Source of the DNA: Blasia pusilla
Taxonomy: Eukaryota
Assembly: GCA_050084515.1 (NCBI GenBank)
Contig: CM114271.1
Coordinates: 1,302,001-1,366,000 of the forward strand
Reading direction: 5' to 3'
DNA length: 64,000 bases
Shown: piece by piece, positions 1 to 53,639 of the stretch
Layout of the letters: every line of letters begins with the position of its first letter
Numbering within the stretch: the stretch's first letter is position 1
The notes under the pieces: model-generated
Told to the model about the DNA's origin: nothing
What the model saw: the letters and a program-made list of their open reading frames with translations, nothing else
The model's database searches: none
Position numbers and translations under genes: made by a program

Positions 1-808
1 ACCGGCGGAAAAAGTATCCCGCATACGAAATTCGCGAGATACTGACACGTAGCTAACAGCTGGAGAACATGAGGTCTAGATGGGTTCGGTAGCAGACGAC
101 TGGTCTGTACACATCTGGCCACAGCGAGGCCAATGATGCGCGGTCCAACCTGAGAACAAGTTTCGTTCGTCGGAGGGAGCATTTGGATGGATGGGTGTGA
201 AATGTAACGATTCTCGGTTGCGCGCGCGGAAAGGCTCACGGTCGGAGCGAGTGGTGAAGGTGTGGCAGTGGACTGACTGACGGACTGAGTGACTGGCTAG
301 CATTCCCGTGCCAGATAGTACAAACAGCCACTCTAAGTTTAACCCGTGGTAGAATAGGTGAGGTACGTTTACAGGGTCTGTACGGACTCCTTATTGACCC
401 GCCCGCGCCCTCGCCCTGAGGATGGAGAAGAGTAACGTCCCCGTCTCCCTTCTTCCCTCGCCTACGTTCATCCCTCAACTACCCGCGGCAACTACAAGAG
501 CGCTGGCGCCCCCTCCTCTCAGACGCAGTCTGCCATTCGTTCTCTCCACCTCAATCGATCAAGCATCCGCTCGGAGTGCGTTCGTGTGTGGAGCTCAAAG
601 AGAGAAGAGTTATCGTGTCGCCAACCCTCAAGGAGCGCTCTGGTGTTTCTGGTGTGTCGGCTTACGGACGCGAAGCTTGGCTTGGCCAGAACGTTTTGGA
701 GAGTTGTGAACGGCCTCTGCCGTTTGAGGGCCGCGGGTCTCTCAATTTCGATCTGTTCTCGAGTGGGAGAAGGTGATCACCACGACGACCGCTAGGGGCA
801 GAGATTTA

Positions 809-1373
809 GTAAGTAATTACGGGGTCGGGACGATCTTTGGGCGTCGGTGTCGATGTCGGTGTCGTTTGTAGTGTTTCGCGTCTGGATCTTTTCCTCATTT
901 AGAACAGTGCATGGACCGAGATCGGAGTTCAACTGCTGTCTAGGTTGTTCGAGTTTTTGATGTATCCCTACTCGTTCTGAATCGGATTTGGTCTGCATCT
1001 GTTATTCCCGCTTTGTTCATAGTGTTCGCCTCAGTTATTTTTCTAAATCTGTGCTCCGCCCCCTCATGATTCTCAGTAGACGCTAGGAATACTGGACAGT
1101 TACTATTCTCTGCTACTTCGACCGGTCTCTCGTCCTTTTAGGCGAATGTGCGTAGTTAGTCTAAGTAACTGTCCCTGAAATGCCGTTAGTAAATTGAATT
1201 CTCTGTGAGCGAGTAGTGTGTGGCCCCGGGGTGCCAACAGGTTGCCATTCCTAATTGACCCTCCTTGATGACGCTATTTGGTGGATTTAGTTTGGACAGT
1301 CCCACTCTCACTCTCATTCTAGATCCTTCTCTCAAATTTGGTTCTGATGTCTCTCTTCTCTCCGATCTCTCAG
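809..1373 (+). other. First 5'-leader intron of the SAMDC-ODC gene
   Basis: Donor TTTA|GTAAGT at 809; long pyrimidine tract and TCTCAG| acceptor ending at 1373, 9 nt before the tiny uORF ATG. Plant SAMDC genes typically have a leader intron just upstream of the tiny uORF. No ATG seen in the preceding exon (about 520-808). Confidence 0.7.
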
Positions 1374-1382
1374 AAGGCCTTA

Positions 1383-1391
1383 ATGTTATAA
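1383..1391 (+). promoter_or_regulatory. SAMDC tiny uORF (ATG TTA TAA, Met-Leu-stop)
   Basis: Sequence aATGTTATAATGgag: the last A of the TAA stop (1391) is the A of the small uORF ATG. This is the canonical 1-nt TAATG overlap of plant SAMDC leaders. Confidence 0.9.
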
Positions 1392-1743
1392 TGGAGGCTA
1401 AAGGAGGTGACAAGAAGAATTGCAGCCGTAGTCCTTGGCAATACGAGAGTCCCCTCGGATACGTTGTGGAGGACGTCCGACCTCTCGGTGGTGTTGAGAA
1501 GTTCAGAAGTGCTGCATACTCTAACGTAAGTGCAAGTGACTTTGAGCCGTAAAATTGTGACATTGTGAAGTTTTGGATGCAACGTAAATTTAATGATTTT
1601 CCGCTGTAGTCAAATGCGGATTGTGATGTTTTCGTCATTTACGCCTCGTTACTGCGAATTCACATTCATATAACCTATGACATAACGCTTAACATGTTCA
1701 CCTGTCTCGTGATAATGTGCAGTGCGTGAGGAAGCCATCCTGA
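1391..1743 (+). CDS. SAMDC small uORF / leader peptide, 51 aa, two exons (1391-1525, 1723-1743)
   Basis: Spliced translation MEAKGGDKKNCSRSPWQYESPLGYVVEDVRPLGGVEKFRSAAYSN|CVRKPS* matches the conserved plant AdoMetDC leader peptide (MESKGGKKK...YEAPLGYSIEDVRP.GG..KF.S..YSNC..KPS). GT-AG intron 1526-1722 (AAC|GTAAGT...GTGCAG|TGC) is at the conserved N|C position. Confidence 0.93.
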
Positions 1744-1934
1744 TATACGCTAAAGGAGTGCGAATAGGAGTGGTGCTGCTGCCCCCTGGAGTGGTCTGAT
1801 CTGCTGCTCGCAGCTCCCCTGCAGATCATTGCTTCATAAATTCTGTTTCCCTGCCAGTTCTCTCCCACCCCCCCACCACAAATATCAAATCCATCCTCTT
1901 AGGGCGTTCGTTAGTCGTCAACTAGATCAGCGAA

Positions 1935-4520
1935 ATGGGAGTGTGTGTTACATCCGAGTCCGGAGTTGCAATGGAGGCCCAAGCAGTGAGTCCGGGATTT
2001 GAAGGTTTTGAGAAGAGGTTGGAAGTCGAGTTTCATCCTGCTCCTGTCTTCACTGATCCTTCGGGTAGGGGCCTCAGAGCTGTTTCCCGGTCACAGTTGG
2101 ATGCCATGCTGGATGCTGCGAAGTGCACTATTGTGTCAATACTTTGCAACGAGGAGTTTGATTCATATGTGCTATCTGAATCAAGTCTCTTTGTCTACCC
2201 CTTGAAGATCGTGTTGAAGACTTGTGGTACGACCCAAATTCTGAATGCTGTTCCGTCTCTTCTGGAGCTGGCTTCCGCACATTGTCTCAAACTACGGTGC
2301 TGCAAGTACTCTCGTGGTACTTTCATGTTCCCCTCCGTCCAGCCGTTCCCTCATGGGAGTTTCAGCGAGGAGGTGAGATACTTGGAGCGATACTTCGGTC
2401 ATCTGGGATTGGGGGGCAAAGCTTACGTCATGGGTAATATGGCCAAGTTTCCGAACTGGCATATTTACACAGCGTCCGACGAGAATGATTTCCGAACTGA
2501 GCGTACGTACACTTTGGAGATGTGTTTGACGAAGCTCGACAAGAAGAAGGCCGAACAGTTCTTCAATGCAGATGGTACAAAATCGGGTGCGGACATGACG
2601 GAGGCGGCAGGGATTAATAAGTTGTTACCCAACTCAAAGATATGCGATTTTGCATTTGAACCTTGTGGGTATTCGATGAACTCAATTGAAGGCGCAGCAC
2701 ACTCAACTATTCATGTTACTCCGGAAGATGGTTTTAGTTTTGCCAGTTTTGAGACTATGGGATACGGCCCTCGGGAAGTGGATCTGCAGTCTTTGGTGGC
2801 TGATGTCACCTCTGTCTTCAAGCCCGCTTGCTTTTCCCTGTGCCTCTACGCAACTGGTGGGACAGACAGCGTTATCCGGCCTGGGTCCTGGGGGATTCCA
2901 ATCTGTCCGCCAGGTTACGTTTGTGACGGCACGAGCCGACAGGAGCTGCCTTGCGGCAGTGTCGTAGTGTTTCACACCTTCAAGGATTCAGCTAACTGTT
3001 CAGTGGTATCCGTTCAACCCCTTGCCTTGCTGTTCGATTCGGAGGACAGGTTGCTGAACGGTGATTTCGTGCCCGATATTAAAATGGTCGTGAAGGAAAA
3101 TGCGGTATCCAAAGGCCTGTCATGCAGTGTTGTTAAGAATGTGTGGAAGAGCAGCGGTCTCTTTGATGGAGGAATGGCGGATGTGCTGGCAGAACTTAAG
3201 CCTGACATAGTTGGTTCTACTGTCACCGATATGGACTCGTTCATCCGAAAAAAAATTGCCGGAACTGGAATGGAAAGTGCATTCTATGTTTTGGATTTGG
3301 GTTTGATAACCAGGCAGTGGAAGCTGTGGCAGTCTTGCCTACCCCGTGTGAAACCGTTTTATGCCGTGAAGTGCAATCCCGAAGTGGCTCTTGTATCGTT
3401 CCTGGCTAAGCTGGGAGCTGGCTTTGACGTTGCTAGCAAGTCGGAACTTTTAGTCGTCACCAATATTGGTGTCGCCCCTGATGACATTATCTTCGCAAAT
3501 CCTTGCAAACTTCCGTCCCACATTGTGGAAGCTGGAAAACTGCATGTGCAACGTACTACGTTTGATTCCGAGTCTGAACTCTTCAAATTGAAGAAGTATT
3601 TACCGCAGGCAGAATTGGTTCTGCGGATCAGAGCTGAAGACGTGGAAAGCTGCTTTTCTGGTATCAAGTATGGGGCAGAGCTGGACGAGTGCGAACATCT
3701 TCTCACAGTTGCGAAGCAGCTGAGTCTGAAAGTAGTCGGGGTTGCGTTTCATGTCGGCAGCGGCGCGTCAGATCCTAATGCTTACGCATACGGGATTGCA
3801 CGTGCGAAGCAGGTATTTGATTTTGCAGCGTCTATCGGCTTGAATGAACTGAACCTTCTTGACATCGGTGGAGGCTTCGTTTCGAACGGGTCGGTCGGCG
3901 TAAGATTCCATAACGTTGCGTCTGCAATCAACAAGGCACTTGATGCATATTTTCCTCCAAGCATGGGAGTGAAGGTCATGGCAGAGCCGGGCCGGTTCTT
4001 CGCTGAAGATGCGTTCACTCTTGCCACTTACGTCTTCGGCAGTCGTATGCGTAAGAAGGGGGCGACTAAAGTAGCAGAATACTGGGTGAATGATGGCATT
4101 TATGGATCGATGAATTGTCTTCTGTATGCTAACGCCATCTTGTCTGTCCGTGCCTTGTCTCAAACTGAGGAAGTGGAGGTGGGGTGGCATGACAAGAACG
4201 AATACCCTTCCACCATCTTTGGCCCTACTTGCGATGGACTCGACTGTTTGATGCGTGATGTTTGGCTTCCTCAGCTGCAATGCGGCGACTGGCTGCTTTT
4301 CTTGCGCATGGGGGCATACACCAAAGCTGCCGGATCCAATTTCAACGGGTTCGATGTAAAAGATATTCCCACGTTTACCGTCTATTCTTGTAGTGAGAAG
4401 GATTATTCTTGCTTAGACCACGAATATGTGGGCGTAGAGAAACGCGACTCTTGTGAAGAATGCTCCATTTTTAGTTTTGGTAATCTCAGTAGTGGTAGTA
4501 GCAGTGACGACGAGCAGTAG
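1935..4520 (+). CDS. SAMDC-ODC: S-adenosylmethionine decarboxylase / ornithine decarboxylase-family fusion protein, 861 aa, intronless
   Basis: aa about 20-350 are plant AdoMetDC: GFEGFEKRLE, YVLSE|SSLFV pyruvoyl cleavage site (S83, nt 2181), KTCGTT, PCGYSMN, TIHVTPEDGFSFASFE. aa about 445-820 are a fold-type III PLP decarboxylase: PFYAVKCN (PLP Lys479, nt 3369), FDVAS, FANPCK, HVGSG, LDIGGGF, AEPGRFF, GPTCDGLD (Cys766), MGAYT, FNGF. One uninterrupted ORF across a linker of about 95 aa. Confidence 0.95.
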   Translation: MGVCVTSESGVAMEAQAVSPGFEGFEKRLEVEFHPAPVFTDPSGRGLRAVSRSQLDAMLDAAKCTIVSILCNEEFDSYVLSESSLFVYPLKIVLKTCGTTQILNAVPSLLELASAHCLKLRCCKYSRGTFMFPSVQPFPHGSFSEEVRYLERYFGHLGLGGKAYVMGNMAKFPNWHIYTASDENDFRTERTYTLEMCLTKLDKKKAEQFFNADGTKSGADMTEAAGINKLLPNSKICDFAFEPCGYSMNSIEGAAHSTIHVTPEDGFSFASFETMGYGPREVDLQSLVADVTSVFKPACFSLCLYATGGTDSVIRPGSWGIPICPPGYVCDGTSRQELPCGSVVVFHTFKDSANCSVVSVQPLALLFDSEDRLLNGDFVPDIKMVVKENAVSKGLSCSVVKNVWKSSGLFDGGMADVLAELKPDIVGSTVTDMDSFIRKKIAGTGMESAFYVLDLGLITRQWKLWQSCLPRVKPFYAVKCNPEVALVSFLAKLGAGFDVASKSELLVVTNIGVAPDDIIFANPCKLPSHIVEAGKLHVQRTTFDSESELFKLKKYLPQAELVLRIRAEDVESCFSGIKYGAELDECEHLLTVAKQLSLKVVGVAFHVGSGASDPNAYAYGIARAKQVFDFAASIGLNELNLLDIGGGFVSNGSVGVRFHNVASAINKALDAYFPPSMGVKVMAEPGRFFAEDAFTLATYVFGSRMRKKGATKVAEYWVNDGIYGSMNCLLYANAILSVRALSQTEEVEVGWHDKNEYPSTIFGPTCDGLDCLMRDVWLPQLQCGDWLLFLRMGAYTKAAGSNFNGFDVKDIPTFTVYSCSEKDYSCLDHEYVGVEKRDSCEECSIFSFGNLSSGSSSDDEQ

Positions 4521-7500
4521 GCATACCGTTGCATCTCGCATTTTTGTAATCCTTCAAAGGATATAGTTAGTTTTGAAATTAGGGCGGAGTATAAGACTGG
4601 AAATAATAGATGTATTATATTCTACTGTCTAAGTAGGTATGGAGCATACATCTGTCCCGAGCAAGTGTGCAGCAGTCAAAAGTAGATAATATGTCAGAAT
4701 TTTTTCTCCCTTCCTATACAGGGGCTTTTCATTGTCGACTATTGAACAATTTTGTTGCTACCTCTAGCTAACTAGAAACTCTGTCTAACTCAATAAAAAA
4801 GGTGATGAATTATTGACTGTATCGTGGCTATATAGTCGACAAGTAGATTGAACATTTGTCAAATACGTGCATATTTAACATTTATCAAATACGTGCATAT
4901 TCTTACTAACTTGAAAAATGCTGGAAGGCGAGAAATCTCTCTTCGTTGAGCTATAAGCCTGAATCAGGTTGTAAAATAAGGAAGGAGAAGTAATGAAAAA
5001 ATTAGCGATTTTGAAACTAACTCTTGAATTATTACAACTACTTGTGCAGTACGGAAAAGACACTCTCGAATCTATTTGGATTCCCTTGCGTAAGCCGAAA
5101 ATGCACAATGCCAATAGAAAGAGCGGGGAACCGCAGAGCTGGCGACCTCTGCTAAACTGGACAGATAAACTTGCCAAGTTTCTACGTGAAAGTTAATCAA
5201 GGGCCGTCTCTGTAAGTAACGTCAGCAAACGTCACAGCAGCCGTAACCATCGAAATTCGTCCACACGTAAGCATCTCTGAAACACACTGGAAATGAGAAA
5301 TGGTATTATAATTCCTCAGATGCTGCACACTGCCCAAAAATGCTACGAGAGCCGGTGCTGCTCCGTCCCACACCCGTTATCCTGGACTCTTGAGCGTGCT
5401 CATTTCGCAAAGCGAGAACCTGAAATAGGACTCGGCAAGTTGGTCGAACGTCAACGACAATGCTTAACACTGCTGTCAAAGTCATTCGGTGGTCTGCAAG
5501 TGGCGCCTGCGTTCATCTCTGTAGATCGACTTCTGCCATGCTCATCCGAAACGACCACGGGTCCCGGGCTGCAACACTTGTAACCTCTGCCTCCATCTCA
5601 ACAAATTCGTCTGTGCACCATAGATTTGGACGCCGCGGAACCTGAGGCCCTGGCCGTCAAAGGTTGTACTCGGTCAGGAAACGGTCTCCCTGTCTGCCAC
5701 CGGTCGCCACTCTGTAACACGATTCGCGCCCTAAACGGCTTCCACCCTGCCCCAGTCGCCCGCGTTCAGCTTTGGGAGGGGGTAACCTTTGCGTTGGGGT
5801 CGTTCACCACAAGCGAAGGTGTTCGCTGCACCATCCGATTTAAAGCACGCACGCGTCCGCTGGGTTGGATGCAATGGCATCCGAACTTGGGCCGCACCAT
5901 TCGCTCTAAAGCACGAAACCGCTCCCGAACTGGCACGCACGGAATTTCGTACCACGCTGGGCTGCACCGTCCGTTCGAAAGCACGCTCTCTCTTTCTCAG
6001 ATAGATGCAATTTCATCCGGATCCGCAACTGGACTCGTGATTCTCGTGAGCTAAAACCGAGTCCAGGACCAAACACCACGACGAAGCTAGCGAGGTATAT
6101 ATGGATGTTTGTCCCGTCCCTACCCGCACCTCTCTCCACTTCCTTAGTAACAGCCAACTTTGCCGACGCGGCACACTCATGACTTTCGTTGGCATTGTCG
6201 TAGATGCCCGCCTGATCATCCGTGCTCTGCATTCCACGTGATGCGGACTCGTGCTGACCGTACGAGCCAGTCACTCAACGAATCATGTGGACTCCTCAGT
6301 GTTCTCACTGTGTTCGAACTCTTCTCAGGACCGTGCGTTCTGAGAATCTGGGATTCTGAATATCGTCCCGTCTCGGCCCCCGGGTCTCGCTCGCTCGTAT
6401 ATCGCCGCGATTCCACCCACGTAGTGCGCCATCCAACTAAAGAGCGCGACCGCACCACTTCAAAGTTCAACGCCCCGTCAACTTCAGCTCGTTCCAGGCT
6501 CGCCGTGAAACGAGCGGGAAATGGTGCGGCGTCACATGGGCGCGCATGGACCATTTCCGTCCCTACCGCCTATTAAATGTGGGTCATGATTGAAGAGGGG
6601 TTGGTGCAAAACATGGCACTTGGGAGAGGACTCGAATCTGGGCATTCGCAATGGACTCACCATCCACTCCACTAGAATACCCTACGTGAAGTGTAGGGTA
6701 TTAACAAAATTATTAATCTGTTATCCAAAATAGAACTTGTGGTTTCAGGATCTTGACCTCGGGTTAACTAACATGAGGATGAATAGGCGCGAGGTTTCCG
6801 TCAAGTGTCATGGGATATATTCTACTCAAAGCATGCCCATTTCCGCATGTATCGTGGATGCTCATGGACTTGTGTTTCCAGCCTAGACCATATTCATCAT
6901 TCGATTGAGAATTCTTCAATGTGAAATGGATTTGCTTTCCTATTCACAAGAGGGTCGAGAATTCTTTACGACCACCACTGTGAGTCCCAAATGGATTCAG
7001 GATTCTCTTGGTGCTCCATCTCCTCACAAGCCACATATACTTTGTTAAACTTTCGACCTCAAATCTTAAGATGTGCTACTCCCCTCCACACTCCCTTATA
7101 ATTTGACCTATTTAGTGGGGGCCCCCAAACTATTTATGTCCATATGAGTGTTTTCTTTAACGTAAGAAAGACTTTCATGGAGTCTCCAAATGTTACTGGG
7201 TAACACTTGAATCATGCTCTTTTTTTTTTTTCCCAAATATGCTCTTAATGTACTTTGATATCTTGAAAGAGAGCAAGGTTTCTTCTCATGGCATGATAGT
7301 TATTCTTTAGATATGTTTTGTAAGATGATTATGTGTGAGATGAAAATAGAGACCAACCAAGATTAATTTTTTATTACATCTCATATCTTACAAGAGATAT
7401 CATCCATAGTCATCCTTGGACCCTAAATGGGACCATACTATAAGTGGATGGAAATGGATAAAAGCACTAACTTTCTAATTTGATATAGATTCTCATTAGT

Positions 7501-7819: not shown

Positions 7820-8314
7820 ATATATATATATATATATATATATATAGGAACTTTATACTTTGATATATATTCTCACGACTCTCACAAAGAAGACGTAATA
7901 ATTTGTGTGAAGGATGAGTTTATTAGCAAAAATTTACAAAAGGTTGCAAAAGACCATGCTAACAAAGTTTTTTGAATTGGTGAGTTTTGTTGGATAAAAG
8001 ATCTTCAAATTTGATGTGTTGAGTTTGTTATAATTTCATTTAAAATTTTCTGATATACTAAATATTTCATACATTTTTTTTCTAATTATTTTTAACTATT
8101 GTTAGTTCTGCAAACTATGGTTGGAAGTTCACCATGGTCACAAGTCTCTTAGTTGGTTAGATTACTACTTATCTCTTAACCATTTTTGTTAGTTCTGGTT
8201 TTGTAAATTGTGCTCATGGTGTGTTGGCCTCCTCCTAGTGTGTTGGCTTACATGGTATGCTCGCCTGCTCATGTTGTGTTGGCCCTTCCACCTTCCCTTC
8301 TAGGAAACTCTATA

Positions 8315-8317
<3 letters not shown>

Positions 8318-8365
<48 letters not shown>
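8318..8365. repeat. (CT)n microsatellite
   Basis: About 24 consecutive CT units read directly from the sequence. Confidence 0.95.
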
Positions 8366-8368
<3 letters not shown>

Positions 8369-11300
8369 ACTTCCTTGATTCACTTCTACTCCTGCCCTTT
8401 AAGGCTTTGTGTTTTGAGATTAGCTAGCTACTACGTACCTGAACCTCTTATGGTGCCTTGATAAACTAAGAAGAAATGTGCATTAGTGTGGAGAATGCTC
8501 CAAGAACCAATCTACCACATATTCCTACATCTTGGTTTCAACCGTCTCTTTTCAAGTCTTGCGTATTCTAATAAGGTGTTGCTTTGCCAAGCACCCAATT
8601 CTCAATAGAAGTTGCAGACTAGTTCTCCATGTAATCCATTTCAGATTTGCTCTTTCAGGTTTGTAAGTGATTACCCTCATGTACATGGTTCTATGGAAGA
8701 TATTGTCGAGATCTACTATTTTACCTGAGAGAACTAGATTTTGATTTCAATAGACTTCACCATTTGTTCCTTTTCATGTGATGTAAATTTGTTGAACAAC
8801 CTACATGTGTAGTCTTTAAGGGGATCACCCTCATTGTTTTTAATTAGTAAAAATACTAAGGGTGGCACTAGGAAATCTTTGGATTGGAAAATTTGAAGGG
8901 TAAGTTTTAGGGTATAAGTAGATACCCTAAAGTATAGGAATATATCTATATTTTTATCAGCATTAGGGTAGAAGGAATGTAAAACAGTCCATGGATGTCA
9001 TGCATTAGTAGCAATACTTTATTCCAAAGCCAACTTTTAACACATCAATTTTTTTCATTGAGACTTATCCCTAAAATAAAATTACCCTTGGTAAGTTTTT
9101 CAATAATAATTATTTAATAAGTTAATATAATTTCCTTTTCTTTAACATTTATATTGTCTCTATATAGAAATTATTCACATGTTCTTATGACTTTTCTTTC
9201 ATGAATTAAATTTTCTTCCTAATCAAATGGAAACTTACTTCTTCAAACAACATTCTCTAGAGAATAAGATATGTATTTATCTCTTGTATTTAAAAATAAT
9301 CACTATTTAATAAGAAAAAGGGAAATAATGTTACTTGTAAAAATAATAATTTTATTAAAAAAATGGTTTGTCATGCCTATATGTTACACTAAGTTGGGTA
9401 TTCCCAAAAAACCATAATGGTGAAAAAAAAGGTATTTAATATATACATATTTGAGAAGAGGAAATAATGTGAAATCAATGGAATTTGAAAATATATGTTG
9501 TTTGGATCAAAAAAGTCTTATGGATATAAAGGACATGATAGTAAATTTTCTGCAAGTACGAAGACTATCACCATGTGAGAGAAGAATGAAACTCCTCGGA
9601 AAATTTGTCTATAATCTATCATGTTGACATTGTTCACTGAATTTTGGTACCAATTGTCCATGTGCTTAATACATTCTTGTTCTTATGCAATTTTGATATC
9701 CATAAGAACAATCAAAATTCATTTTTTTCAAGGATTGATAGAATTTCCCTCCAAAGAACTTATGGTATTTTTTCAAAATGTGAATCAATTTATCATTAAT
9801 TTTTTATCAGGAAAAATATAATTTCATCTTTTCTATTTCTAGAATATCCTTCCTGAAGTCTTTATACCTGATTTTTTTGGAAATTTTTTATAAAGTCACA
9901 TTTAAAATGTAACATGATATTAATCTATGTGTCTATTTTCCATCTCTATCATTTTTTTTCTCAATAGTATTTCCAACTTTTGATTTTTGAAAATTCTACC
10001 CATTTTATTTCATTAAATATTTTATAGTGTTATAAATTTTAATTTATGAAAGACATTCATGTATACTATTATTTGAGGAAGTTTTTTCATGACAATAAGT
10101 GTTCGCCACGTTTATTTTAGGCTCAAAAATGGAATAAACGGGCGTTTAGACGTAAACGGTTATAAAGACCGTCCTCACATATCCTAATTAGTTTTTAGAA
10201 AGAAAGTACTATTATTTATTATCGGAGTTTATGTATCATGCCCAAACCCCAAATAGATCTGGAGCTCTCACTCCTTACTCTATTTATGACATCCAATTTT
10301 AAATCATATCTTCTTACATGTAAAACTATCTCACTAAGTTTCTTTGGTAGAGGGCGACCGTAGATAAAAATTTTAATACTAAAATAATTACATACATTAC
10401 AAGAACATTATCAATTAATTTTTGAAATCCAAAATAAGATTTAAGTCACATGGATAAAATCTATAATATTTTATCTTCGAACAGATATTTTTCTTCCGAA
10501 AAGTTAAAGCGTCCGTCCATTATTAAATGAGAACAGAGGTATTTATTTATTATTATTATTTGTGTACGGGAATATTTATATATAGAAACCATCGCCGCTA
10601 CATTTATAGTTACAGGCGTCATGCATCGAAGGAAAATTCCTTGAGATGACGAAGGAAAGGCGCCCCGGGCTGCCCCTGATTCTAGGACAATCGTTGACCG
10701 TGTAGAGTAGAATGTCTCCACATTTTCTATTCCTTAGTCTTAAAGATTCTTCCAAATATCCTTGCTAGGGATTAGACTCGATCTTAGATTGCGCTTGCAG
10801 GATTGTCCCACTCTAGCAAGGATATTCTCCCTAGGCGCCCTTTTTTTTTGGTTGTCCGTATCGAGAATCCCCCGGAGAGGCAGGACGGATGTGACTCAGC
10901 GCACGGAAGGACTACTTGCTCATTCTCCCTATGTCACAGCCCTGAGCGGCGCATTGATCGACGGACTATTCATTCTCTACGTTTCAGTTGGTCTCGCAGT
11001 CCTGAGGTGTCTTTTGATTCTTTCCTTCTTTCTTTCTGTCCATCCGTGATTCCGTCTGTGACTCTGTGTGTGGCCACGCACGCCCCTTCAATACCGTACT
11101 TTCTGCAAAGACTCTTCCGGTACACATATCGAGGGCGGCGGTTTCCAAACTGCTGCGGGAAAAATTGCCTACGGAATAATAGGGCCACTCATTCCCGTGT
11201 AGTTCACACGAATGGACTTTATTGAATAATATTACTTTTTTATAAATAATAATTTAAAAATTGGTATAGTCCGAAAGAGGACAAAAATTATGTGAGTGTT

Positions 11301-23128: not shown

Positions 23129-26100
23129 ATGGGCCCACAGGGCATGATATCAAGTAATGTCTCAAGATACCCTGGAGTTAATCTGACCATAGCATCTTTT
23201 GATGGGACTAACTATAGATATTGGTCATTCCAAATGAAACTCCTTCTTGAGCAGAAGAGACTATGGGAGTTTGTGTCTTCTGAGGTGAAAGACCCAGATG
23301 AAATCAAGGATTTTGAAAACAAGAATGGTGATGCTTACTCTACCATTTGCCTTCATACAGAGTGGTCTATTGCTGAAACTCTTAGGGATGAGAGTCTAGC
23401 TTGGAGGGTTTGGCAAATCTTGCAAAATCAGTATGAGAAAGTTCTTGTATGTGAAGGGTTACAACTCTGGCGAGATTTCAGAACCATTGAGTTTGAGGAG
23501 GGTCAGAGCATGCAAGCGCATGTGGTACAAGTTCGAGCCATGCAGTTGAAGGTGAAAGCTGCACTCTGACTTGACTTTGAAGGCAAGAATTCTATCTTGC
23601 ATTTCCTGGGGACATTACCTCCTAGGTTTAACATCATCATCAAAATCCTTCACAACAAGGATGCAGAGCTGTCTTGGGAATACGTGACAACACAAATCAT
23701 TCGAGAGGATGAAGAATGGAAGAAAGATCAAGAGGCAGATTCAGCTCTGTTATCCCGCTTTAAGTTCAAACCTGAAAGGTGGACTCCTAATGAGAGGAGA
23801 GACACAAAAACAAATACACAAATCTGTTACACTTGCAGGGAAAAGGGACATCTATCTCCTCAGTATCCCAAGAATAAGAACTACAAGATGAAGAAATTCA
23901 TCAAGAGATCTCACAAGGAGGGTGCAATGATTGCTGAGCATGTTGCAGATGCAAATTACTCAGAATGGGGGTTAGTTAGCAGCAAGGAGGCCACTCTCAA
24001 AAGTAAAGGTTGGTTTCTCGATTCTGGAGCTGCTGCTCACATTTGCTATGACAAAGATCTTTTTTGTGAGTTTGATCCTGTGTCAAGTGCACAGTATGTC
24101 AGATGTGGGACCTGGGAATAGAAGTCGTGTACTTGGGATTGGAAAAGTATCCCTGAAATTTGATAGTGAGCATAGTCAAGATGGGATGTTAAACAATATC
24201 CTTTTTGTACCAGAGTTCACAAAGAACTTGGTATCTGTGCATCAGACTGAGAGAAAGGCATTCTTGTATTATTCCTTGACAAAAGATGCATCCTTCAAAA
24301 GGGAGAAGAAGTTCTCTGTCAGGGTGTGACAGAAGAAAAGTTGTTTCGATTGGTGGAAACAACAAAAGTTGAAGCGATGGTGGCTGCTGATGCCATGGTA
24401 GCTGAAAACTCCAACAACATGAAATTGTGGCATCTTCGACTCGGCCATTTATCAAAGATCAACCTTCATTCTCTACAGAAGATGGTGGAAGGGTTGAAAC
24501 TACAAGCTGATGGTAGATAGGACTTTTGTAGAGCATGTGATGAGGGTAAATCTCACAAATTATCATTTCCCAAGAAATCTTTAGATCTCATCCACTCAGA
24601 TGTTTGGGGTTACATGACACAAAAGTCTCTAGGAGGAGCTGCTTGGTATGTGTCCTTTGTGGATGATTATAGCAGAAAAAGCTATATCAGATACATCATC
24701 AGATACACAAAGGTGAGGTTCTTGATAAGTTCAAGAACTTTGTGGCAATGGTGGAGCTACAAACAGGAAGAAGAATGAAGAAAATTCGCTCAGATGGAGG
24801 CAAGGAGTACAGGAACAAAGAGTTCTCCTCCTTTTTGCAACAAAAAGAGGATTTTGGCTGATGTCACAGCCAGAGACAGTCCCTCTCAGAATGGAGTAGC
24901 AGAGAGACTAAACAGAACTCTGTCAGAGAAGGCGTTGAGCATGCTCCAGCATGCAAATCTCAGGAAAAGCTTTTGGGGAGCTGCAATCAAGACTGCAAAC
25001 TTTCTGAGGAATGTAAGTCCTACTAGTGCTTTGAATGGGATGACTCTAGAAGAATGCTGGAGTGTTAAGAAACCAGATATCTCCCACCTGAGAGTCTTTG
25101 GTTGTCCAGCTTACGTACATATCCCAAAGGAGCAAAGATCAAAATTCAGTAAGAAGGCTGAAAAGCTCATCTTTGTAGGATATGAGACTGGCTTGAATGG
25201 ATATGTTCTCTACAATCCAAAGACTGGACAGTGTGTCACAAGTAGAGATGTGCAGTTTGATGAAACCTGGGAAGGAGATCAGAAGAAAATTTCTGAAGTA
25301 GAGGGTGAATCTCTGAAGGTATATGTCAGGAGAAAGCAGAAAGTTGTCCAAACTGAGGAGAATCATCAAGAATTCAACTTTCAGCCTGCTGAAGTACCAG
25401 GTACCTCTGAAGATGCACAAACTGAAGAAGTGGCAGAGACATTGCCAAGGAGATCCGGAAGAACGATCCGGAAGAACTCCCAACCTATTGACAGGTTGGG
25501 AGTTCATCATGAGAAACAGGCTCACTCCTCAGTGGATGAAGAAGCTTGTCTTACTATGGATGGAGAGGATGAACCTCAAACACTTGCACAGGCTATGAGT
25601 AGACCTGATTGGAGCAAGTGGGAGATTGCCATTGATCAAGAGAAAAAGTCTCTTGCAAAGAATGGCACATGGGAGTGGACTGATCTACCCAAAGAAAGGA
25701 GATCCATTGGTTGCAAATGGGTTTTCAAGATCAAGAGAGGAGCTAACAATGAAGTGGTAAAGTACAAAGCTCGTCTTGTAGCAAAGGGTTTCAATCAGCA
25801 AGCTGAAGTTGATTATACAGAGACCTTTGCTCCTGTAGTACGGTATGGTTCCATAAGGTTGCTTTTAGCTCTAGCTGCTGAAGAAGATTGGGAGGTGGAG
25901 CAATTAGATGTGGAGACTGCTTTTCTGAATGGAGACCTGAAGGAAACCATCTACATGGATGTTCCAGATGGGTATGGTGGACATAGGGGCAATGCATGTT
26001 TGTTGAAGAAGGCATTGTATGGTCTTAAACAGGCTCCAAGAGCCTGGTATGAAAAGTTGGACTCTTACCTTAGGGAACAGGGGTTTTGTAGAGCTCATGC

Positions 26101-27146
26101 AGATTTGAGTGTTTACTGCAAAAATGGTACATTGTTTATTGCAGTTTATGTAGATGACCTCCTGTTGCTAGGCAAAAGTAAGAAAGAAATCCGGCAAGCA
26201 AAGGACAATCTTTGCTCAGTCTTTGCTATGACTATCATAGGCCCAGTGAAGTTCATTCTTGGAACTAAAGTTGAGAGGAACAGAGCAGAAGGATGGATTA
26301 GACTCAGTTAGACTCACTACATTGATGCCATGCTGACAAGGTATAGAATGGCTGAGGCAAAGCCAGTTTCTACTCCACTGGATCCTGGGTGGAAACTTGC
26401 CAAAACAGGTGCAGACAAACAGGAGGAGAATGAGAATGTTGAAAACCTTCAACATTTGTATCAGAGTGCTGTCGGTTCTCTGATGTTTGCCATGGTTTGC
26501 ACAAGGCCAGATATCTCATATGCAGTGGGAGCACTGGCCAGGTACACGTCTAAACCTACTCTCACACATTGGAGATGTGTAAAGAGAATCTTACGGTACT
26601 TGAAAGGTACCAAGAATGCATATCTCGAATACAGGAAACAAGGATGTTTTCCTACCTTGACTGGCTTCACAGATGCTAGTTGGGGGGATGACCCTGACAA
26701 CAGCAGGTCTAAGTGGTGGATATGTATTTACATTGAGTGGTGGTGCTATCAGTTGGCGCAGCAAGCAACAAACATCTGTTGCCTTGTCCACAACAGAAGC
26801 TGAGTTTATGGCAGCTTCAAATGCTACTCAAGAAGTAGTTTGGCTGAGGAGATTGCTTGAGGAGGTTTGTTATAAGCAGAATGATGGAACTGTATTGTAT
26901 TGTGATAATACAGGAAGTATAAGTCTTCTCAAGAATCCTGTTCATCATCCTAGGACTAAGCATATAAATATTAGAAGAAGATTTATAGAAGAGAAAGAAA
27001 ATGAGCAAATAGTCCAAGTAGTATATTGTCCTACAGAGGATATGACAGCTGATGTATTGACAAAGGCATTGTCAAGAGAAAAGCACAACAAATGTTCTCA
27101 GAAGATGGGTCTTATATTAAACTCCAGTAAAGTGGGAGTGTTGTAA
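23129..27146 (+). pseudogene. Copia gag-pol polyprotein, disrupted as assembled
   Basis: gag FDGTNYRYWSFQMKLLL; knuckle CYTCREKGHL; protease WFLDSGAAAH; integrase LWHLRLGH, IHSDVWG, QNGVAERLNRTL; RT IGCKWVFKIK, YVDDLLL; RNase H GFTDASWG, ADVLTKAL. In-frame stops at 23567, 24518 and 26309, plus frameshifts at about 24120, 24245, 24700, 24845 and 26710. Confidence 0.92.
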
Positions 27147-45749: not shown

Positions 45750-48700
45750 TAATTATGTTTGAATATCATACATATTGTTAATTAGTTGAATAGCATTGGA
45801 ATGACTGTAGAAATGAAGATGTGATTTTATTCATTCTTCAAGGCCTTCCAAAACATTATAAGTCTTTGAGACCTCTATCTTTGTAAGACAACAGTATCCA
45901 ACATTTGAAGAGTTAGTCTCATTCTTAATTAGTGAGGACATGCGCCCAATTTGTAGCAATAGCTTGTCTAATATGCAAAAGAGTGTGTTATTTGCAGGTA
46001 ATGGATCACACATAAACAAAGGTTGTAATAGAAGCTTCTGTGGTGGTGGTGGATATGAAACATATGGAGGAATATGTACTCAACATAACTTTATATAATC
46101 AATTGTGAACCAATACAAGACACAGTCACAAGATGGTAATGGTGGAAATCATTTTTGTCGAAGTTAACAATAAAGGATCCCTAGATCTTGCAAGTATTGT
46201 GGGATGAAGGGTCAATATGCAAAGTTTTGCTTGAATAAAAAGATAGATATGAGAACGGGAGCCTTACAACAATAGAACTATGTGGAGCAACAACACCAAG
46301 TGCAATATCAAGAACGACAACATTCAAAAATTGAGCATATCTTGGTCATGTCTCGTTATATAGGAGCAATTTTCAAGTAAGACTCAACAGTACATTGGTA
46401 CATCGACTCTAGTGCATCAATTCACATAACCTCACAAGCTAAATGGTTTAATAGTATGAACTTTGTGAAAGATCAAGCAATAGTGCTCACAAAAGATGAT
46501 ACTCAATATCATATCCTGGATATTAATAAAGTTCCAATAGCATCAGATGGTTTTTATGCTCTTGGAAATATTATATATGCTCCTACCATTGCAAGAAATT
46601 TCATCTTTGTAGAATAGACAGTAAAACAAGGTTATTGTGTAAAGTTTAACACAAATGATTGTTTGATTGAAATAATGGATGATCAGACTATGATAGCCCA
46701 AGGAACAAGATCTGGCTGAATGTTCAAATTAGATGTTTCTATGTCAAAAATTCAAACGACAATATATAGTCAAATTAGCCAACAAGTCACAAATCTGAAT
46801 ATGTGGCTTAAAAAATTGGACAAATAAATCTTTAAAGATTATGGAGTCTTTCATCATCTAATCTAGTGATCGAACTTCCTAAATTATCAAGTGCTATTAT
46901 GTTAGAGGTATTCCCTACTTGCCAATTTTGAAAACAAGCTAGATTTATATTTCTAAAGCAAGAGAGAAGAGGATCCAATATTTTAAAGTTGATTTATAAG
47001 GATGTGTGGATAACATCATAACACATCCTTTATGGTTTTCAGAATTTTTTTATATTTTTTGATGACTTCTGTAGGTATGTATGGGCATATTTTTTGAAAT
47101 ATTCATAGTGTTTCCAGACATTTAAAATTCAAGTATAGAAGCAGACTAAACAACACATTCTCAAATTGGGTTGTGATGAAGGAGGAGAGTACCATTCAAC
47201 AGATTTTGATGACTACTTACATCAAATTGACATCCAACGACAAGTCAGTTGCTATTACACTCCACAACAAAAATCGAGCGATTGAGCAGAATAATCGACA
47301 TATTGCTGAGGTGACACGTGCTATATCTGCTGAATGATAAGAACATGCCTAAGGTTGATTGGATAGATGTTGTAGCGTGTACAATCATAATCAACCAAAC
47401 TCCAATGATAGAAGTTCATGATAAAAATCCATTAAAAGTTTTCATAAGAAATAAACATGTTTTTTCATTCTTGAAAGTCTTTGGTTGTATTTGTTATACT
47501 CATGTTCCTTCTGAATGACATAAAAAATTAGATCCCAAAATCTGAGAGAGATGTATCTTCATTTGCTACGGTGATGGAACTAAGGGGTATAAGTGCTACG
47601 TTACATCCTTTAGGCAGCTTATTGTTAGTCGCGGTGGTGTTTTTTATGAGTGCAAATCATAGCATGCTCAATATGTGCATATTCCACCTCTAAACTAGTC
47701 TGTTGAGGAGGAGAATATGACTTTAAATCAATAGATATTACCTACAAATTCCCCGAGCGCTAGTATAGCCTAGACCCTTCACGTAAATCTCTCAATCCAT
47801 GGTTGAAAAAAGTATATATTGAGTATGTTAACACTAGTCAAAGCTCAAATGAGATATCAGAGGTATCTAGCCACCTTTGATGAACAACTTCATAAATCAA
47901 GTTTATAGAGTCATAAATAAATGATTCCTTACAACATATCATACATAAATGATGATTGTCCTTCAAGAACAACAATTGAATTTTTTTGAAGGAGCTTCAT
48001 GTAAGGTTGAATGGATTGAAGCTATGGAGGAAGAGCTTGTTGCATTTAGCCATCAACCAACTTACGAGTTGGTTCACTAGAAGAAAAGCTTGGTTTTATG
48101 ATTAGAATATTTGACTGAAGTGAATCACATATTTTGATCAATGGCTAGGAATGACTCGTTACTCATAGAGACATGAGAGCCAAGTCATAAATACCAAATG
48201 ACTAAGATTACTAGCTTAGTCAAATGACGTGGAGGAGTCAAACCTGTAGTCATTTCATTACGACTGCCACGTCAATAACATAATGTGTACAAATGGCATA
48301 TCAGCATATGAAATGGAAAAAACACATCATCATAAGAGAAGACACATCAACTAGAGGAATGACACGTCAACCTCAACAGCTGCCATATCAACATATGAGG
48401 ATAAATTTTGTAGTCACTATTTATAGACAACTACTTGAGTCATATATTTCGTAAAATAATTGGAAAAAAATCGGTAATATCTAGTGATGTGTTAACACAC
48501 GTACACAAGCATGGAGTAGTAAACCATGTATGACCGATATTAGCACACAATGATTGAAAATGACTAGGTTGGTTGTGAAGGAATGACTACAAATGACGTC
48601 TACAGTTTTTGCATCATGATTATGCATGACTAATCGAGTTGGCTTTTTATGACTAGCAATGATTATATGAGTTTCATTTTATGACTTTGATTGACTTATT

Positions 48701-53490: not shown

Positions 53491-53639
53491 ATTTAATGGT
53501 TGAAAATTGGCTATAGGAGTTTGATTGAAGAGGTTCTTATCTCTGTTTATTTCTCTTAAAGAACCTACTTGACAAAAACTCATACTCTTGGGCCAGCTTA
53601 TGGGACGCATGACTTAGTAATATATCATAAGATATATAT

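What the first reader, a model, noticed from the sequence alone, without database searches (positions are those of the whole stretch)
1935..4520. SAMDC-ODC fusion: both rate-limiting polyamine decarboxylases in one plant polypeptide
Seen: one stop-free, intronless 861-aa ORF joins a complete pyruvoyl-type AdoMetDC (cleavage site SE|SS, KTCG cysteine, TIHVTPE histidine) through a linker of about 95 aa to a complete PLP-dependent ODC-fold domain (K479, HVGS, GGG loop, EPGR, GPTCD). Known: a bifunctional AdoMetDC/ODC with this domain order is a hallmark of Plasmodium, while characterised plant SAMDC and ODC are separate genes and some plants lack ODC. Inferred: the SAMDC half and its leader are plant-type, so this would be an independent, convergent fusion. 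After self-cleavage the ODC domain would stay attached to the pyruvoyl alpha chain, and obligate ODC dimerisation would pull a normally monomeric plant SAMDC into an (alpha-beta)2 complex that couples diamine and dcSAM supply. I know of no characterised land-plant example but could not search for one.
Basis: partly seen in the sequence, partly recalled or inferred. Interest (0 to 1): 0.92.

Follow-up and report, generated by a model that had tools for sequence, protein, structure and literature searches.

The report
Ancient plant SAMDC-ODC fusion gene
A liverwort gene really does encode both key polyamine-making enzymes in one protein, but it is an old fusion shared by green algae, liverworts, lycophytes and ferns, not a new or convergent invention.

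Summary
Window 1935..4520 (+) is one 861-codon ORF with a complete pyruvoyl AdoMetDC domain and a PLP-dependent ODC domain. Stranded RNA-seq covers it as one unspliced exon of a ~3.5 kb mRNA, with no indel or stop.

The interpretation does not hold. All 120 listed full-length relatives have the same domain order. Every named one is Viridiplantae: Marchantia (72% identity), Riccia, Calypogeia, Selaginella, Adiantum, Ceratopteris, streptophyte algae and chlorophytes. In the domain trees, stand-alone land-plant SAMDC and ODC sit inside the green fusion clades. Four stand-alone liverwort-type SAMDCs keep the fusion's hinge start and C-terminal tail around a deleted ODC core. The fusion therefore looks ancestral and the separate enzymes derived. 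Fusions also occur in proteomes labelled Selenidium (Apicomplexa), Leptophrys and Diphylleia. Plasmodium itself could not be tested.

New details:
- The spliced 638-nt leader carries only the classic plant tiny and small SAMDC uORFs, so one polyamine sensor would gate both enzymes.
- The flexible hinge is only about 27-40 residues.
- This assembly's allele has Ala/Asn at the human ODC Asp332/His333 positions. Three other data sets of the species read Asp/His.

This is a new member of a known, uncharacterised kind, of moderate interest.

The parts
535..808 (+). Leader exon 1; the transcript starts at about 535-539.
   Evidence: RNA-seq molecule ends cluster at 535-539, and a splice joint runs 808>1374. 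The first mate lies on the minus strand, so by the tool's note on most stranded libraries the RNA is + strand.
809..1373 (+). Leader intron 1 (GT..AG), with minor alternative donors after 767 and 770.
   Evidence: joints. 808>1374: 172 reads in X8, 117 in X9, and contigs of X1 and X2. 770>1372: 47 reads in X8, 37 in X9. 767>1372: 4 and 7. 808>1377: 3 and 12.
1374..1525 (+). Leader exon 2, which holds both uORF start codons.
   Evidence: joints; contigs X1 record 3 and X2 record 11.
1383..1391 (+). Tiny uORF (ATG TTA TAA, ML*). Its last base is the A of the small-uORF ATG.
   Evidence: Context CTTAATGT is weak: T at -3 and T at +4.
1391..1743 (+). Small uORF of 51 aa, made of 1391-1525 and 1723-1743 and split by leader intron 2. 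It ends ...RSAAYSN|CVRKPS*.
   Evidence: Pfam AdoMetDC_leader PF08132, E 1e-22, on exon part 1391-1525. Splice 1525>1723 confirmed by reads. Context ATAATGG is strong.
1526..1722 (+). Leader intron 2 (GT..AG), inside the small uORF.
   Evidence: 269 reads in X8, 257 in X9, and contigs of X1 and X2 skip 197 bases.
1935..4520 (+). Main ORF, 861 aa, a single exon: the SAMDC-ODC fusion proenzyme (94.0 kDa).
1995..2981 (+). AdoMetDC (SAM_decarbox) domain, residues 21-349.
   Evidence: E 1e-107; potato 1mhm E 1e-78, human 1msv E 5e-51.
2178..2183 (+). Predicted self-processing site E82|S83; S83 would become the pyruvoyl group.
   Evidence: The boundary between potato beta (aligned 16-82) and alpha (84-355) chains falls here. 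E82 and S83 are 90% or more conserved in 90 fusions. Processing itself is inferred.
3042..3122 (+). Flexible hinge, residues 370-396 (pLDDT under 50). Sequence conservation is lowest over 361-420.
   Evidence: AlphaFold2; top-residue fraction 0.13-0.25, occupancy 0.52-0.87.
3123..4406 (+). ODC domain including its helical N-extension, residues 397-824. Pfam envelopes cover 454-793.
3369..3371 (+). K479, the PLP Schiff-base lysine (human K69 position).
   Evidence: Alignment to human ODC; invariant in 90 fusions. The residue's role is recalled.
4128..4133 (+). Codons 732-733, GCT AAC (Ala-Asn), at the human Asp332/His333 positions. This site is polymorphic within the species: other data sets read GAT CAC (Asp-His).
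   Evidence: 4129 C>A in 380 of 380 reads (X8) and 873 of 874 (X9), and in the X2 contig. The X1 contig agrees with the window.
4407..4517 (+). Disordered acidic, Ser-rich C-terminal tail, residues 825-861, ending SSGSSSDDEQ.
   Evidence: pLDDT under 50. The tail is shared with Marchantia and Riccia fusions and with four stand-alone liverwort-type SAMDCs.
4521..4817 (+). 3' UTR of about 295 nt, with AATAAA at 4792-4797. Read ends lie at 4801-4817.

Best explanation
This is the liverwort orthologue of an ancient bifunctional polyamine gene of the green lineage. A ~3.5 kb mRNA has two leader introns and a single coding exon.

Its 638-nt spliced leader contains only three AUGs: the overlapping tiny uORF, the 51-codon small uORF typical of plant SAMDC mRNAs, and the main start codon. 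Translation of both enzyme activities would therefore be gated by one polyamine-sensing uORF pair (inferred from the angiosperm SAMDC mechanism).

The 94 kDa proenzyme should cleave itself at E82|S83. That would give an 8.8 kDa beta chain and an 85 kDa chain carrying the pyruvoyl AdoMetDC alpha part, a short flexible hinge and a PLP-dependent ODC domain. ODC is an obligate dimer with shared active sites, so the ODC halves should dimerise and produce an (alpha-ODC/beta)2 particle of about 188 kDa, as I recall for the Plasmodium enzyme (inferred).

The fusion was inherited, not invented here. Separate SAMDC and ODC genes of mosses and seed plants appear to be domain-loss descendants.

In the sequenced accession the ODC substrate-site Asp is replaced by Ala, so ODC activity of this particular allele is uncertain.
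For: Real single transcript:
- Two raw stranded RNA-seq runs give continuous depth of about 200-1300 over 1800-4800.
- The only joints supported by more than 3 reads are the two leader introns (a 3-read 'goes back' signal lies at 4679>4631 in the 3' UTR), and there is no indel in the ORF.
- One spliced contig in each of two further runs spans 1374-1525 plus 1723-4785 or 1723-4675.
- None of the 18 listed ORF variants makes a stop.

Both domains match above Pfam cut-offs, and catalytic residues align to potato and human SAMDC and to human ODC.

AlphaFold2 on 90 fusions: mean pLDDT 86.2 and pTM 0.64. The only segments of 3 or more residues with pLDDT under 50 are 1-14, 370-396 and 825-861.

Leader: the small uORF matches PF08132 (E 1e-22), overlaps the tiny uORF by one base, and the spliced leader has only 3 ATGs. 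The uORF mechanism is quoted from passages of PMC2811004.

Orthology:
- 120 of 120 listed relatives share the domain order.
- The window groups with Marchantia and two Riccia fusions in the SAMDC tree (97/83*) and the ODC tree (100/99*).
- Holding the 24 stand-alone SAMDCs as one clade is rejected (p-AU 4e-7), as is holding the 31 fusions as one clade on the ODC tree (p-AU 1e-51).
- Stand-alone SAMDCs P0122-P0125 align to window 1-~389 and then ~800-861, with the ODC core missing.
Against: - No protein-level data: self-processing, dimerisation and both activities are inferred.
- A732/N733 replace the Asp332/His333 equivalents. Passages of PMC3543441 call Asp332 a key ornithine-contacting residue conserved in functional ODCs.
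- The window is the only one of 90 rows with its residue at four further columns conserved at 85% or more (S572, S575, M682, C771), and it lacks a nearly invariant Arg in the 570s loop.
- The genome of the species was not available, so stand-alone paralogues that might carry the real flux cannot be excluded.
- Both AU tests used groups named after the trees had been seen.
- Tree rooting is limited: the SAMDC tree is rooted on chlorophyte fusions and the ODC tree on only 3 opisthokont sequences.
- RNA depth rises about 2.6- to 3.8-fold from 5' to 3' across the ORF. I read this as library bias, but an internal ODC-only transcript is not formally excluded.
Confidence: 0.85

Rival explanations
1. 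One reading: an independent, convergent fusion that arose within land plants and is unrecorded elsewhere.
For: The SAMDC half and its leader are plant-type. My 9 answered full-text searches found no paper describing a land-plant fusion.
Against: The same architecture occurs in 120 of 120 listed relatives, from chlorophytes to ferns. The window nests with Marchantia and Riccia fusions in both domain trees, and streptophyte-algal fusions branch below land plants. The leader-peptide family PF08132 is also recorded on Chlorokybus and Closterium fusion models.
Confidence: 0.03
2. In this accession the ODC half is catalytically crippled or has changed substrate. The protein would then act mainly as a SAMDC with an ODC-like dimerisation or regulatory module, a possible first step towards the domain loss seen in other lineages.
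For: A732/N733 sit at the Asp332/His333 positions, and the window is 1 of 90 rows with each residue. S572, S575, M682 and C771 are likewise unique, and there is a one-residue loop deletion. Asp332 is described as substrate-binding and as forming an ion pair with Arg277 (passages of PMC3543441 and PMC4139326). ODC is dispensable in some land plants (recalled: Arabidopsis, Physcomitrium). ODC-core deletion has happened in P0122-P0125.
Against: The other 12 ODC residues I checked are intact: K479, D498, E504, R564, H606, G645-647, E684, R687, D720, C766, D767, Y795 and F803/N804. Three other data sets of the species carry Asp-His. Human D332E keeps kcat at 177 versus 225 per min, so the site tolerates some change, although Ala was not tested there. 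No frameshift or stop has accumulated.
Confidence: 0.2
3. One gene but two proteins: hinge proteolysis or internal initiation releases free SAMDC and free ODC, so the fusion only co-regulates synthesis.
For: The hinge 370-396 is disordered and poorly conserved. RNA depth increases towards the 3' end.
Against: No cluster of read starts inside the ORF comparable to the ends at 535-539 and 4801-4817 (table 6 as shown; 3 rows were not displayed). Retention of the architecture across the whole green lineage suggests selection for linkage. Interdomain docking has only weak model support: ipSAE 0.48 against a best control of 0.00.
Confidence: 0.1
4. Assembly or annotation artefact (misjoin, or read-through of two adjacent genes).
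For: None found.
Against: Raw reads from two RNA-seq runs, and transcript contigs from two other runs, cross the junction without joints or indels. Orthologues have the same structure.
Confidence: 0.01

Closest known systems
Predicted SAMDC-ODC fusion proteins of Viridiplantae, for example Marchantia polymorpha P0002, Riccia P0003/P0004, Selaginella P0008, Ceratopteris P0024/P0030, Klebsormidium P0031; and the Micromonas fusion (noted in Green et al. 2011, recalled)
   Same: Same three Pfam domains in the same order, at 72% (Marchantia) down to about 37% identity. The window nests with the Marchantia and Riccia fusions in both domain trees.
   Different: This is a different species: it is sister to the Marchantia plus Riccia group. 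Its allele has Ala-Asn at the Asp332/His333 positions and four other unique residues at conserved ODC columns. None of these proteins has been characterised biochemically as far as my searches show.
Plasmodium falciparum bifunctional AdoMetDC/ODC (properties recalled, not fetched)
   Same: N-terminal AdoMetDC, hinge, C-terminal ODC. Self-cleavage is expected to leave ODC on the alpha chain, with a heterotetramer formed through ODC dimerisation.
   Different: At 861 aa it is much shorter than the roughly 1400 aa I recall for Plasmodium. It has no large low-complexity inserts: only 27 hinge residues are disordered. It carries the plant uORF leader. Common descent is untested. A fusion from a proteome labelled Selenidium (Apicomplexa) falls outside the green clade in both domain trees.
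Stand-alone plant SAMDC (potato 1mhm; Arabidopsis, moss and seed-plant genes) with the tiny plus small uORF leader
   Same: SAMDC domain 52-73% identical. It has the same processing site and catalytic residues, an intronless main ORF, introns only in the leader, and overlapping uORFs.
   Different: It carries a 500-residue hinge, ODC domain and tail after the SAMDC domain. In the tree, stand-alone forms are nested among fusions.
Stand-alone eukaryotic ODC (human 1d7k and 7s3f, T. brucei 1f3t; plant ODCs of Sphagnum, Ginkgo and Solanum)
   Same: 47-56% identity to the listed stand-alone ODCs. It aligns to human ODC over 439-808 (E 3e-98). The PLP and most catalytic residues are conserved.
   Different: It is fused behind SAMDC. 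Asp332/His333 are replaced in this allele. It has an acidic Ser-rich tail that matches no Pfam family.
Bacterial SpeD-SpeDC fusions (AdoMetDC plus pyruvoyl ODC; PMC10407285, passages read)
   Same: One polypeptide with both AdoMetDC and ODC activity, which couples putrescine and dcSAM supply.
   Different: In the bacterial proteins both halves are pyruvoyl class 1b SpeD homologues. Here the ODC is the unrelated PLP-dependent alanine-racemase fold.

Membership tests
Eukaryotic class 2 pyruvoyl AdoMetDC (Pfam PF01536) | Profile match above the curated cut-off over the whole domain | tested here: met
   360.6 bits against a cut-off of 22.2; residues 21-349 cover profile positions 3-342 of 343.
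Eukaryotic class 2 pyruvoyl AdoMetDC (Pfam PF01536) | Glu-Ser self-processing site at the beta/alpha chain boundary | tested here: met
   YVLSE82|S83SLF. Potato beta chain aligns to 16-82 and alpha chain to 84-355. E82 and S83 are 90% or more conserved in 90 fusions.
Eukaryotic class 2 pyruvoyl AdoMetDC (Pfam PF01536) | Catalytic Cys and His and the Glu/Ser of the active site (human C82, H243, E8, E11, S229; numbering recalled) | tested here: met
   C97, H260, E23, E26 and S247 align to human 1msv and potato 1mhm. E23, E26, S247 and H260 are invariant and C97 is 90% or more conserved.
Eukaryotic class 2 pyruvoyl AdoMetDC (Pfam PF01536) | Actual autoprocessing and AdoMet decarboxylation | not testable with these tools
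   Needs expression and assay.
Eukaryotic alanine-racemase-fold PLP ODC (PF02784 plus PF00278) | Both Pfam domains above their cut-offs | tested here: met
   234.4 bits (cut-off 23.4) and 69.2 bits (cut-off 23). Human ODC E 3e-98.
Eukaryotic alanine-racemase-fold PLP ODC (PF02784 plus PF00278) | PLP lysine, His197, the Gly loop, Glu274/Arg277, Cys360/Asp361 and Tyr389 (human numbering) | tested here: met
   K479, H606, G645-647, E684, R687, C766, D767 and Y795.
Eukaryotic alanine-racemase-fold PLP ODC (PF02784 plus PF00278) | Substrate-contacting Asp332 (LYDHA) | tested here: not met
   The window has A732-N733 (LYANA); 87 of 90 fusions have Asp. Other data sets of the species read Asp-His. 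Role taken from passages of PMC3543441. I therefore file this as an ODC-family domain whose activity in this allele is uncertain.
Viridiplantae SAMDC-ODC fusion group | SAMDC N-terminal and ODC C-terminal in one protein | tested here: met
   120 of 120 listed relatives, and the query, have this order. By BLAST domain spans the linkers are 51-208 aa.
Viridiplantae SAMDC-ODC fusion group | Both domains group with those of other green fusions | tested here: met
   With Marchantia and 2 Riccia: 97/83* in the SAMDC tree of 55 rows, 100/99* in the ODC tree of 50 rows.
Plasmodium-type bifunctional AdoMetDC/ODC | Domain order AdoMetDC-hinge-ODC | tested here: met
   The Plasmodium order is recalled.
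Plasmodium-type bifunctional AdoMetDC/ODC | Common descent with the apicomplexan fusion | tested here: inconclusive
   No Plasmodium sequence could be obtained. The Selenidium-labelled fusion P0467 groups with unnamed fusions outside the green clade in both quick trees, on long branches.
Plasmodium-type bifunctional AdoMetDC/ODC | Large parasite-specific inserts and a long hinge (recalled) | tested here: not met
   861 aa in all; the only disordered internal segment is 370-396.
Plant SAMDC dual-uORF leader (PF08132) | Conserved small-uORF peptide | tested here: met
   80 bits against a cut-off of 25, E 1e-22, profile positions 1-45 of 51. Splicing 1525>1723 completes it to 51 aa.
Plant SAMDC dual-uORF leader (PF08132) | Tiny uORF overlapping the small uORF by one base, with a weak-then-strong AUG context and no other upstream AUG | tested here: met
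   ATG 1383 and stop 1389-1391; small-uORF ATG at 1391; 3 ATGs in the 638-nt spliced leader.
Plant SAMDC dual-uORF leader (PF08132) | Polyamine-responsive translational repression | not testable with these tools
   Needs reporter assays.

The most novel reading that the evidence does not exclude
The uORF-gated SAMDC-ODC fusion is the ancestral polyamine gene of the whole green lineage and may predate it, since congruent fusions occur in proteomes labelled as an apicomplexan, a rhizarian and a collodictyonid. On this reading, every stand-alone plant SAMDC descends from the fusion by repeated loss of one domain, and probably the stand-alone plant ODC does too. Jungermanniopsid-type SAMDCs would preserve the in-frame deletion scar, and this liverwort's Ala732/Asn733 allele would be a living intermediate on the same path.
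Probability: 0.5. Interest if true: 0.65.

Novelty: new member of a known kind. Interest (0 to 1): 0.4.

Why it matters
For the gene itself: it is an ordinary orthologue of a fusion already present in public protein sets, so the claimed 'first plant SAMDC-ODC fusion' does not stand.

What may matter more widely:
1. The textbook picture of separate plant SAMDC and ODC genes seems to describe a derived state. The trees and the deletion scar give a concrete, testable history of domain loss.
2. Putting both rate-limiting decarboxylases behind one polyamine-sensing uORF pair is a simple design for balancing putrescine and dcSAM supply. It could be tested in the tractable relative Marchantia.
3. A natural Asp-to-Ala polymorphism at the ODC substrate site offers a ready-made pair of alleles for asking what the ODC half contributes.
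4. The bifunctional enzyme treated as a Plasmodium hallmark may belong to a much wider family.

Tried and rejected
- Own genome: not held, so paralogues in the same genome could not be sought.
- The look-up of sequencing runs: no RNA holder listed in the index. Raw RNA-seq runs of the same species label were laid instead.
- Plasmodium: no route to a Plasmodium AdoMetDC/ODC sequence among the permitted sources. It was not in the 120 rows listed of 530 hits or in the best 150 representatives.
- Papers: Green et al. 2011 is not held by PMC id or by PubMed id. One search term was rejected for a slash and re-sent with a space (0 papers).
- Nine answered full-text searches on the fusion found no description of a land-plant or streptophyte SAMDC-ODC fusion. 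One search was swamped by taxon terms. Passages of PMC9992855, PMC10407285, PMC6356823, PMC12803844, PMC2811004, PMC8503589, PMC11107197 and PMC11020214 do not describe it. The nearest trace is that the table of PMC6356823 lists one Micromonas accession twice in its row of pathway enzymes (I assume the two columns are ODC and SAMDC, as the headers were not shown).
- Supplements are closed. Supplementary Figures S1-S2 of PMC2811004 (algal leaders) might show fusion genes.
- A rooted SAMDC tree with non-plant stand-alone outgroups was not possible, because none were among the retrieved proteins.
- Putrescine-site residues of the SAMDC domain were considered, but I have only recalled numbering, so no claim is made.
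- Three other long frames in the window were scanned. One is a copia-type reverse transcriptase; two have no family.


Full report
**Observation.** Window 1935..4520 (+) is a single ATG-to-stop frame of 861 codons. Only five stop-to-stop frames of 200 aa or more exist in the 64 kb window. This one (864 codons) is the longest, and the next (510 aa) is a copia-type reverse transcriptase.

Pfam places SAM_decarbox at residues 21-349 (E 1e-107), Orn_Arg_deC_N at 456-690 (E 2e-69) and Orn_DAP_Arg_deC at 454-793. Against solved structures, the potato SAMDC beta chain aligns to 16-82 and the alpha chain to 84-355. Human, mouse and T. brucei ODC align over about 439-810 at E about 1e-98. No solved chain matches both halves.

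**Transcript.** Two raw, stranded RNA-seq runs carrying the same species label cover 535 to about 4815 without a break. Depth across the ORF is roughly 200-570 in X8 and 280-1300 in X9.
- The only joints supported by more than 3 reads are two GT..AG introns in the leader: 809-1373 (with minor donors after 767 and 770) and 1526-1722. A 3-read 'goes back' signal lies at 4679>4631 in the 3' UTR.
- No insertion or deletion is reported inside the ORF.
- In two further runs, one assembled contig each (3216 and 3105 nt) joins 1374-1525 to 1723-4785 or 1723-4675. These are spliced transcript contigs that cross both domains and the hinge.
- None of the 18 listed ORF variants creates a stop; 10 are synonymous.
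- AATAAA lies at 4792-4797, just before the read ends at 4801-4817.

**Domain integrity.**
- SAMDC: E23 and E26 (FEGFEK), E82|S83, C97, S247, H260.
- ODC: K479, D498, E504, R564, H606, G645-647, E684, R687, D720, C766, D767, Y795, F803/N804.
- Most are invariant or 90% or more conserved among 90 aligned fusions.

There is one exception. Residues 732-733 are Ala-Asn (LYANA), where 87 of 90 rows have Asp and 85 of 90 have His. By the ungapped alignment to human ODC these are Asp332 and His333.
- Passages of PMC3543441 call Asp332 one of five key residues contacting L-ornithine and conserved in functional ODCs.
- Passages of PMC4139326 describe an Asp332-Arg277 ion pair, and a D332E mutant with near-normal kcat.
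- The change is a polymorphism. Reads of X8 (380 of 380) and X9 (873 of 874) and the X2 contig read GAT CAC (Asp-His), while the X1 contig agrees with the window.
- The window is also the only one of 90 rows with S572, S575, M682 and C771, and it lacks a nearly invariant Arg in that loop.

**Shape.** AlphaFold2 on the 90-row alignment gives mean pLDDT 86.2 and pTM 0.64. Segments of 3 or more residues with pLDDT under 50 are 1-14, 370-396 and 825-861 only. Residues 397-445 form confident helices leading into the ODC barrel. The true hinge is therefore about 27-40 residues, not about 95.

A docking test of residues 15-360 against 397-825 gave weak support.
- The ipSAE score was 0.48, and the best of 3 controls scored 0.00.
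- By the tool's calibration, the mark was reached by 51 of 78 solved complexes and by 2 of 108 mismatched pairs. At 0.60 or under, however, only 5 of those 78 reached it, as did all 4 mismatches that passed (of 180).
- The runs agree in at least 77% of contacts, and the partner's pLDDT is at least 84.

I treat interdomain contact as open.

**Distribution.** The word-indexed search returned 530 hits in the 473-1507 aa length class. All 120 listed have PF01536 plus PF02784, and all 120 have SAMDC before ODC by BLAST spans.
- Named land plants: Marchantia polymorpha (72%), Riccia fluitans, R. sorocarpa, Calypogeia fissa, Selaginella moellendorffii, two Adiantum species and two Ceratopteris paralogues.
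- Named streptophyte algae: Mesotaenium, Spirogloea, Klebsormidium, Chlorokybus, Closterium and Mesostigma.
- Many chlorophytes are also named. Eight MMETSP entries resolved to Nephroselmis, Crustomastix, Dolichomastix, two Pyramimonas, two Tetraselmis and Mantoniella.
- No seed plant, moss or hornwort name appears among the 120.
- Searches for shorter proteins found stand-alone SAMDCs in Calypogeia, mosses, lycophytes, ferns and seed plants, and stand-alone ODCs in Sphagnum and seed plants. No Marchantia or Riccia name appears among either set of 120. This is only a hint, since most entries are unnamed.

**Trees.**
- SAMDC domain (55 named rows, careful IQ-TREE, rooted on 13 chlorophyte fusions). 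Every streptophyte alga is a fusion. A land-plant clade (99/97*) holds 10 fusions and 24 stand-alones. Starred branches force at least 3 changes of state. The window groups with Marchantia and Riccia (97/83*), and the next relative is the stand-alone Calypogeia SAMDC (100/99*). Holding all 24 stand-alones together costs 98.7 log-likelihood units (p-AU 4e-7).
- ODC domain (50 rows, rooted on a mite and two Mucorales). Green ODCs are one clade (100/100*). Stand-alone Sphagnum plus seed-plant ODCs (99/93*) are sister to the fusions of Klebsormidium, Zygnematophyceae and land plants (95/91* together). Chlorophyte and Mesostigma/Chlorokybus fusions lie outside. Holding the 31 fusions together costs 84.7 units (p-AU 1e-51).
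- Both AU groups were named after the trees had been seen, and the outgroups are few.

**Deletion scar.** The stand-alone SAMDCs P0122 (Calypogeia, 462 aa) and the unnamed P0123-P0125 (458-462 aa) have C-terminal tails that match two parts of the window protein. One is 341-~389, the hinge start (best E 6e-11). The other is 777/797-861, the last strand of ODC plus the acidic tail (E 5e-12 to 8e-8). In a MAFFT alignment they run with the window to about 389 and resume at about 800 (…NG-DVKD..TFY…DSCEE.SIF.F…SSSSDDE…), with the whole ODC core missing. This is direct evidence that at least this stand-alone SAMDC lineage arose from the fusion by an in-frame deletion.

The acidic Ser-rich tail (46-100 aa by BLAST spans, ending SSDDE or SDDD-like) is shared by streptophyte-algal and liverwort fusions. 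It is short or absent in Selaginella, ferns and chlorophytes.

**Beyond the green lineage.** The exhaustive search of 1.84 billion representatives gave 12138 hits at E 0.001 or below and 2072 at 1e-30 or below. Of the proteins newly added have both domains, all in SAMDC-then-ODC order. Source names attach three of these to Selenidium serpulae (Apicomplexa), Leptophrys vorax (Rhizaria) and Diphylleia rotans. These come from transcriptome proteomes, and the last two organisms eat algae as far as I recall, so prey contamination is possible.

In quick trees, all 37 sampled fusion ODC domains and the green stand-alone ODCs form one starred clade (97*, 58 of 70 rows). This clade excludes the opisthokont and 9 unnamed ODCs. 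The same partnerships recur in the ODC tree and the SAMDC tree: Selenidium with P0432 and P0434; Diphylleia near Leptophrys, P0463 and P0461 (one clade in the ODC tree, adjacent branches of an open fork in the SAMDC tree); and P0389 with P0392. That agreement argues the two halves travelled together. Branches are long, and stand-alone sampling outside plants and opisthokonts is thin.

**Regulation and mechanism.** The spliced leader (exons 535-808, 1374-1525 and 1723-1934; 638 nt) contains three ATGs only:
- a tiny uORF at 1383 (ML*, weak context);
- a 51-codon small uORF at 1391, sharing one base with the tiny uORF's stop (strong context; PF08132, E 1e-22);
- the main start at 1935.

This is the arrangement described for plant AdoMetDC mRNAs. 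There, high polyamine levels shift initiation to the small uORF, whose peptide represses downstream translation (passage of PMC2811004). PF08132 is also recorded on Chlorokybus and Closterium fusion models.

Inferred chain of events:
- One sensor gates synthesis of a 94 kDa proenzyme.
- The proenzyme self-cleaves at E82|S83 into 8.8 and 85.2 kDa chains.
- ODC-domain dimerisation gives an (alpha-ODC/beta)2 particle that delivers putrescine and dcSAM in fixed stoichiometry.

None of the protein-level steps was tested.

**Literature.** Nine answered full-text searches, and passages from eight papers on polyamine evolution, found no description of a streptophyte or land-plant fusion. From memory, the abstract of Green et al. 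2011 mentions an AdoMetDC-ODC fusion in Micromonas; that paper is not held. In PMC6356823 one Micromonas accession appears twice in its row of pathway enzymes. Supplements were closed.

**Verdict.** The interpretation as a novel, convergent land-plant fusion is not. The gene is a new member of a known but biochemically uncharacterised family. Interest is moderate and rests on four points: the inferred ancestral status of the fusion, the deletion scar, shared uORF control, and a natural active-site polymorphism.

Noticed in passing
window 4128-4133 (codons 732-733): Polymorphism within the species at the ODC substrate site. The window and the X1 contig read Ala-Asn. X8, X9 and X2 read Asp-His, the state in 87 of 90 and 85 of 90 fusions and in human ODC (Asp332/His333). 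The two base changes lie two bases apart.
   Followed up: partly
proteins P0122-P0125 against window residues 341-389 and 777-861: Stand-alone liverwort-type SAMDCs of 458-462 aa keep the fusion's hinge start and its C-terminal tail but lack the ODC core. This is an in-frame deletion scar.
   Followed up: yes
window 4407-4517 (residues 825-861): A disordered acidic, Ser-rich C-terminal tail ending SSSDDEQ. Similar tails of 46-100 aa end the fusions of streptophyte algae and liverworts, but not those of Selaginella, ferns or chlorophytes. Its function is unknown; a phosphorylation or turnover signal is only a guess.
   Followed up: partly
proteins P0467, P0496 and P0383: SAMDC-ODC fusions in proteomes labelled Selenidium serpulae (Apicomplexa), Leptophrys vorax (Rhizaria) and Diphylleia rotans. 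They fall outside the green clade in both domain trees. Prey or host contamination is not excluded.
   Followed up: partly
window 767-808 / 1372-1377: Alternative splice sites for leader intron 1: donors after 767 and 770 besides the main one after 808, and an acceptor shifted by 3 bases. All lie upstream of the uORFs.
   Followed up: no
window 1874-1877: 30 reads (X8) and 15 reads (X9) run off into unlike sequence just behind a C-rich run in the leader. Agreement among them is low (0.70-0.72). Possibly a length difference in the C-run between accessions or a library artefact.
   Followed up: no
window 24779-26308 (+): A 510-aa open frame with copia-type reverse transcriptase (RVT_2, E 5e-68) and a retroviral SH3-like domain: a retrotransposon remnant about 20 kb downstream.
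   Followed up: partly
window 8001-10000 and 46001-54000: AT-rich stretches (GC 0.31-0.35) contrast with GC of about 0.50 over the gene at 1-4000.
   Followed up: no
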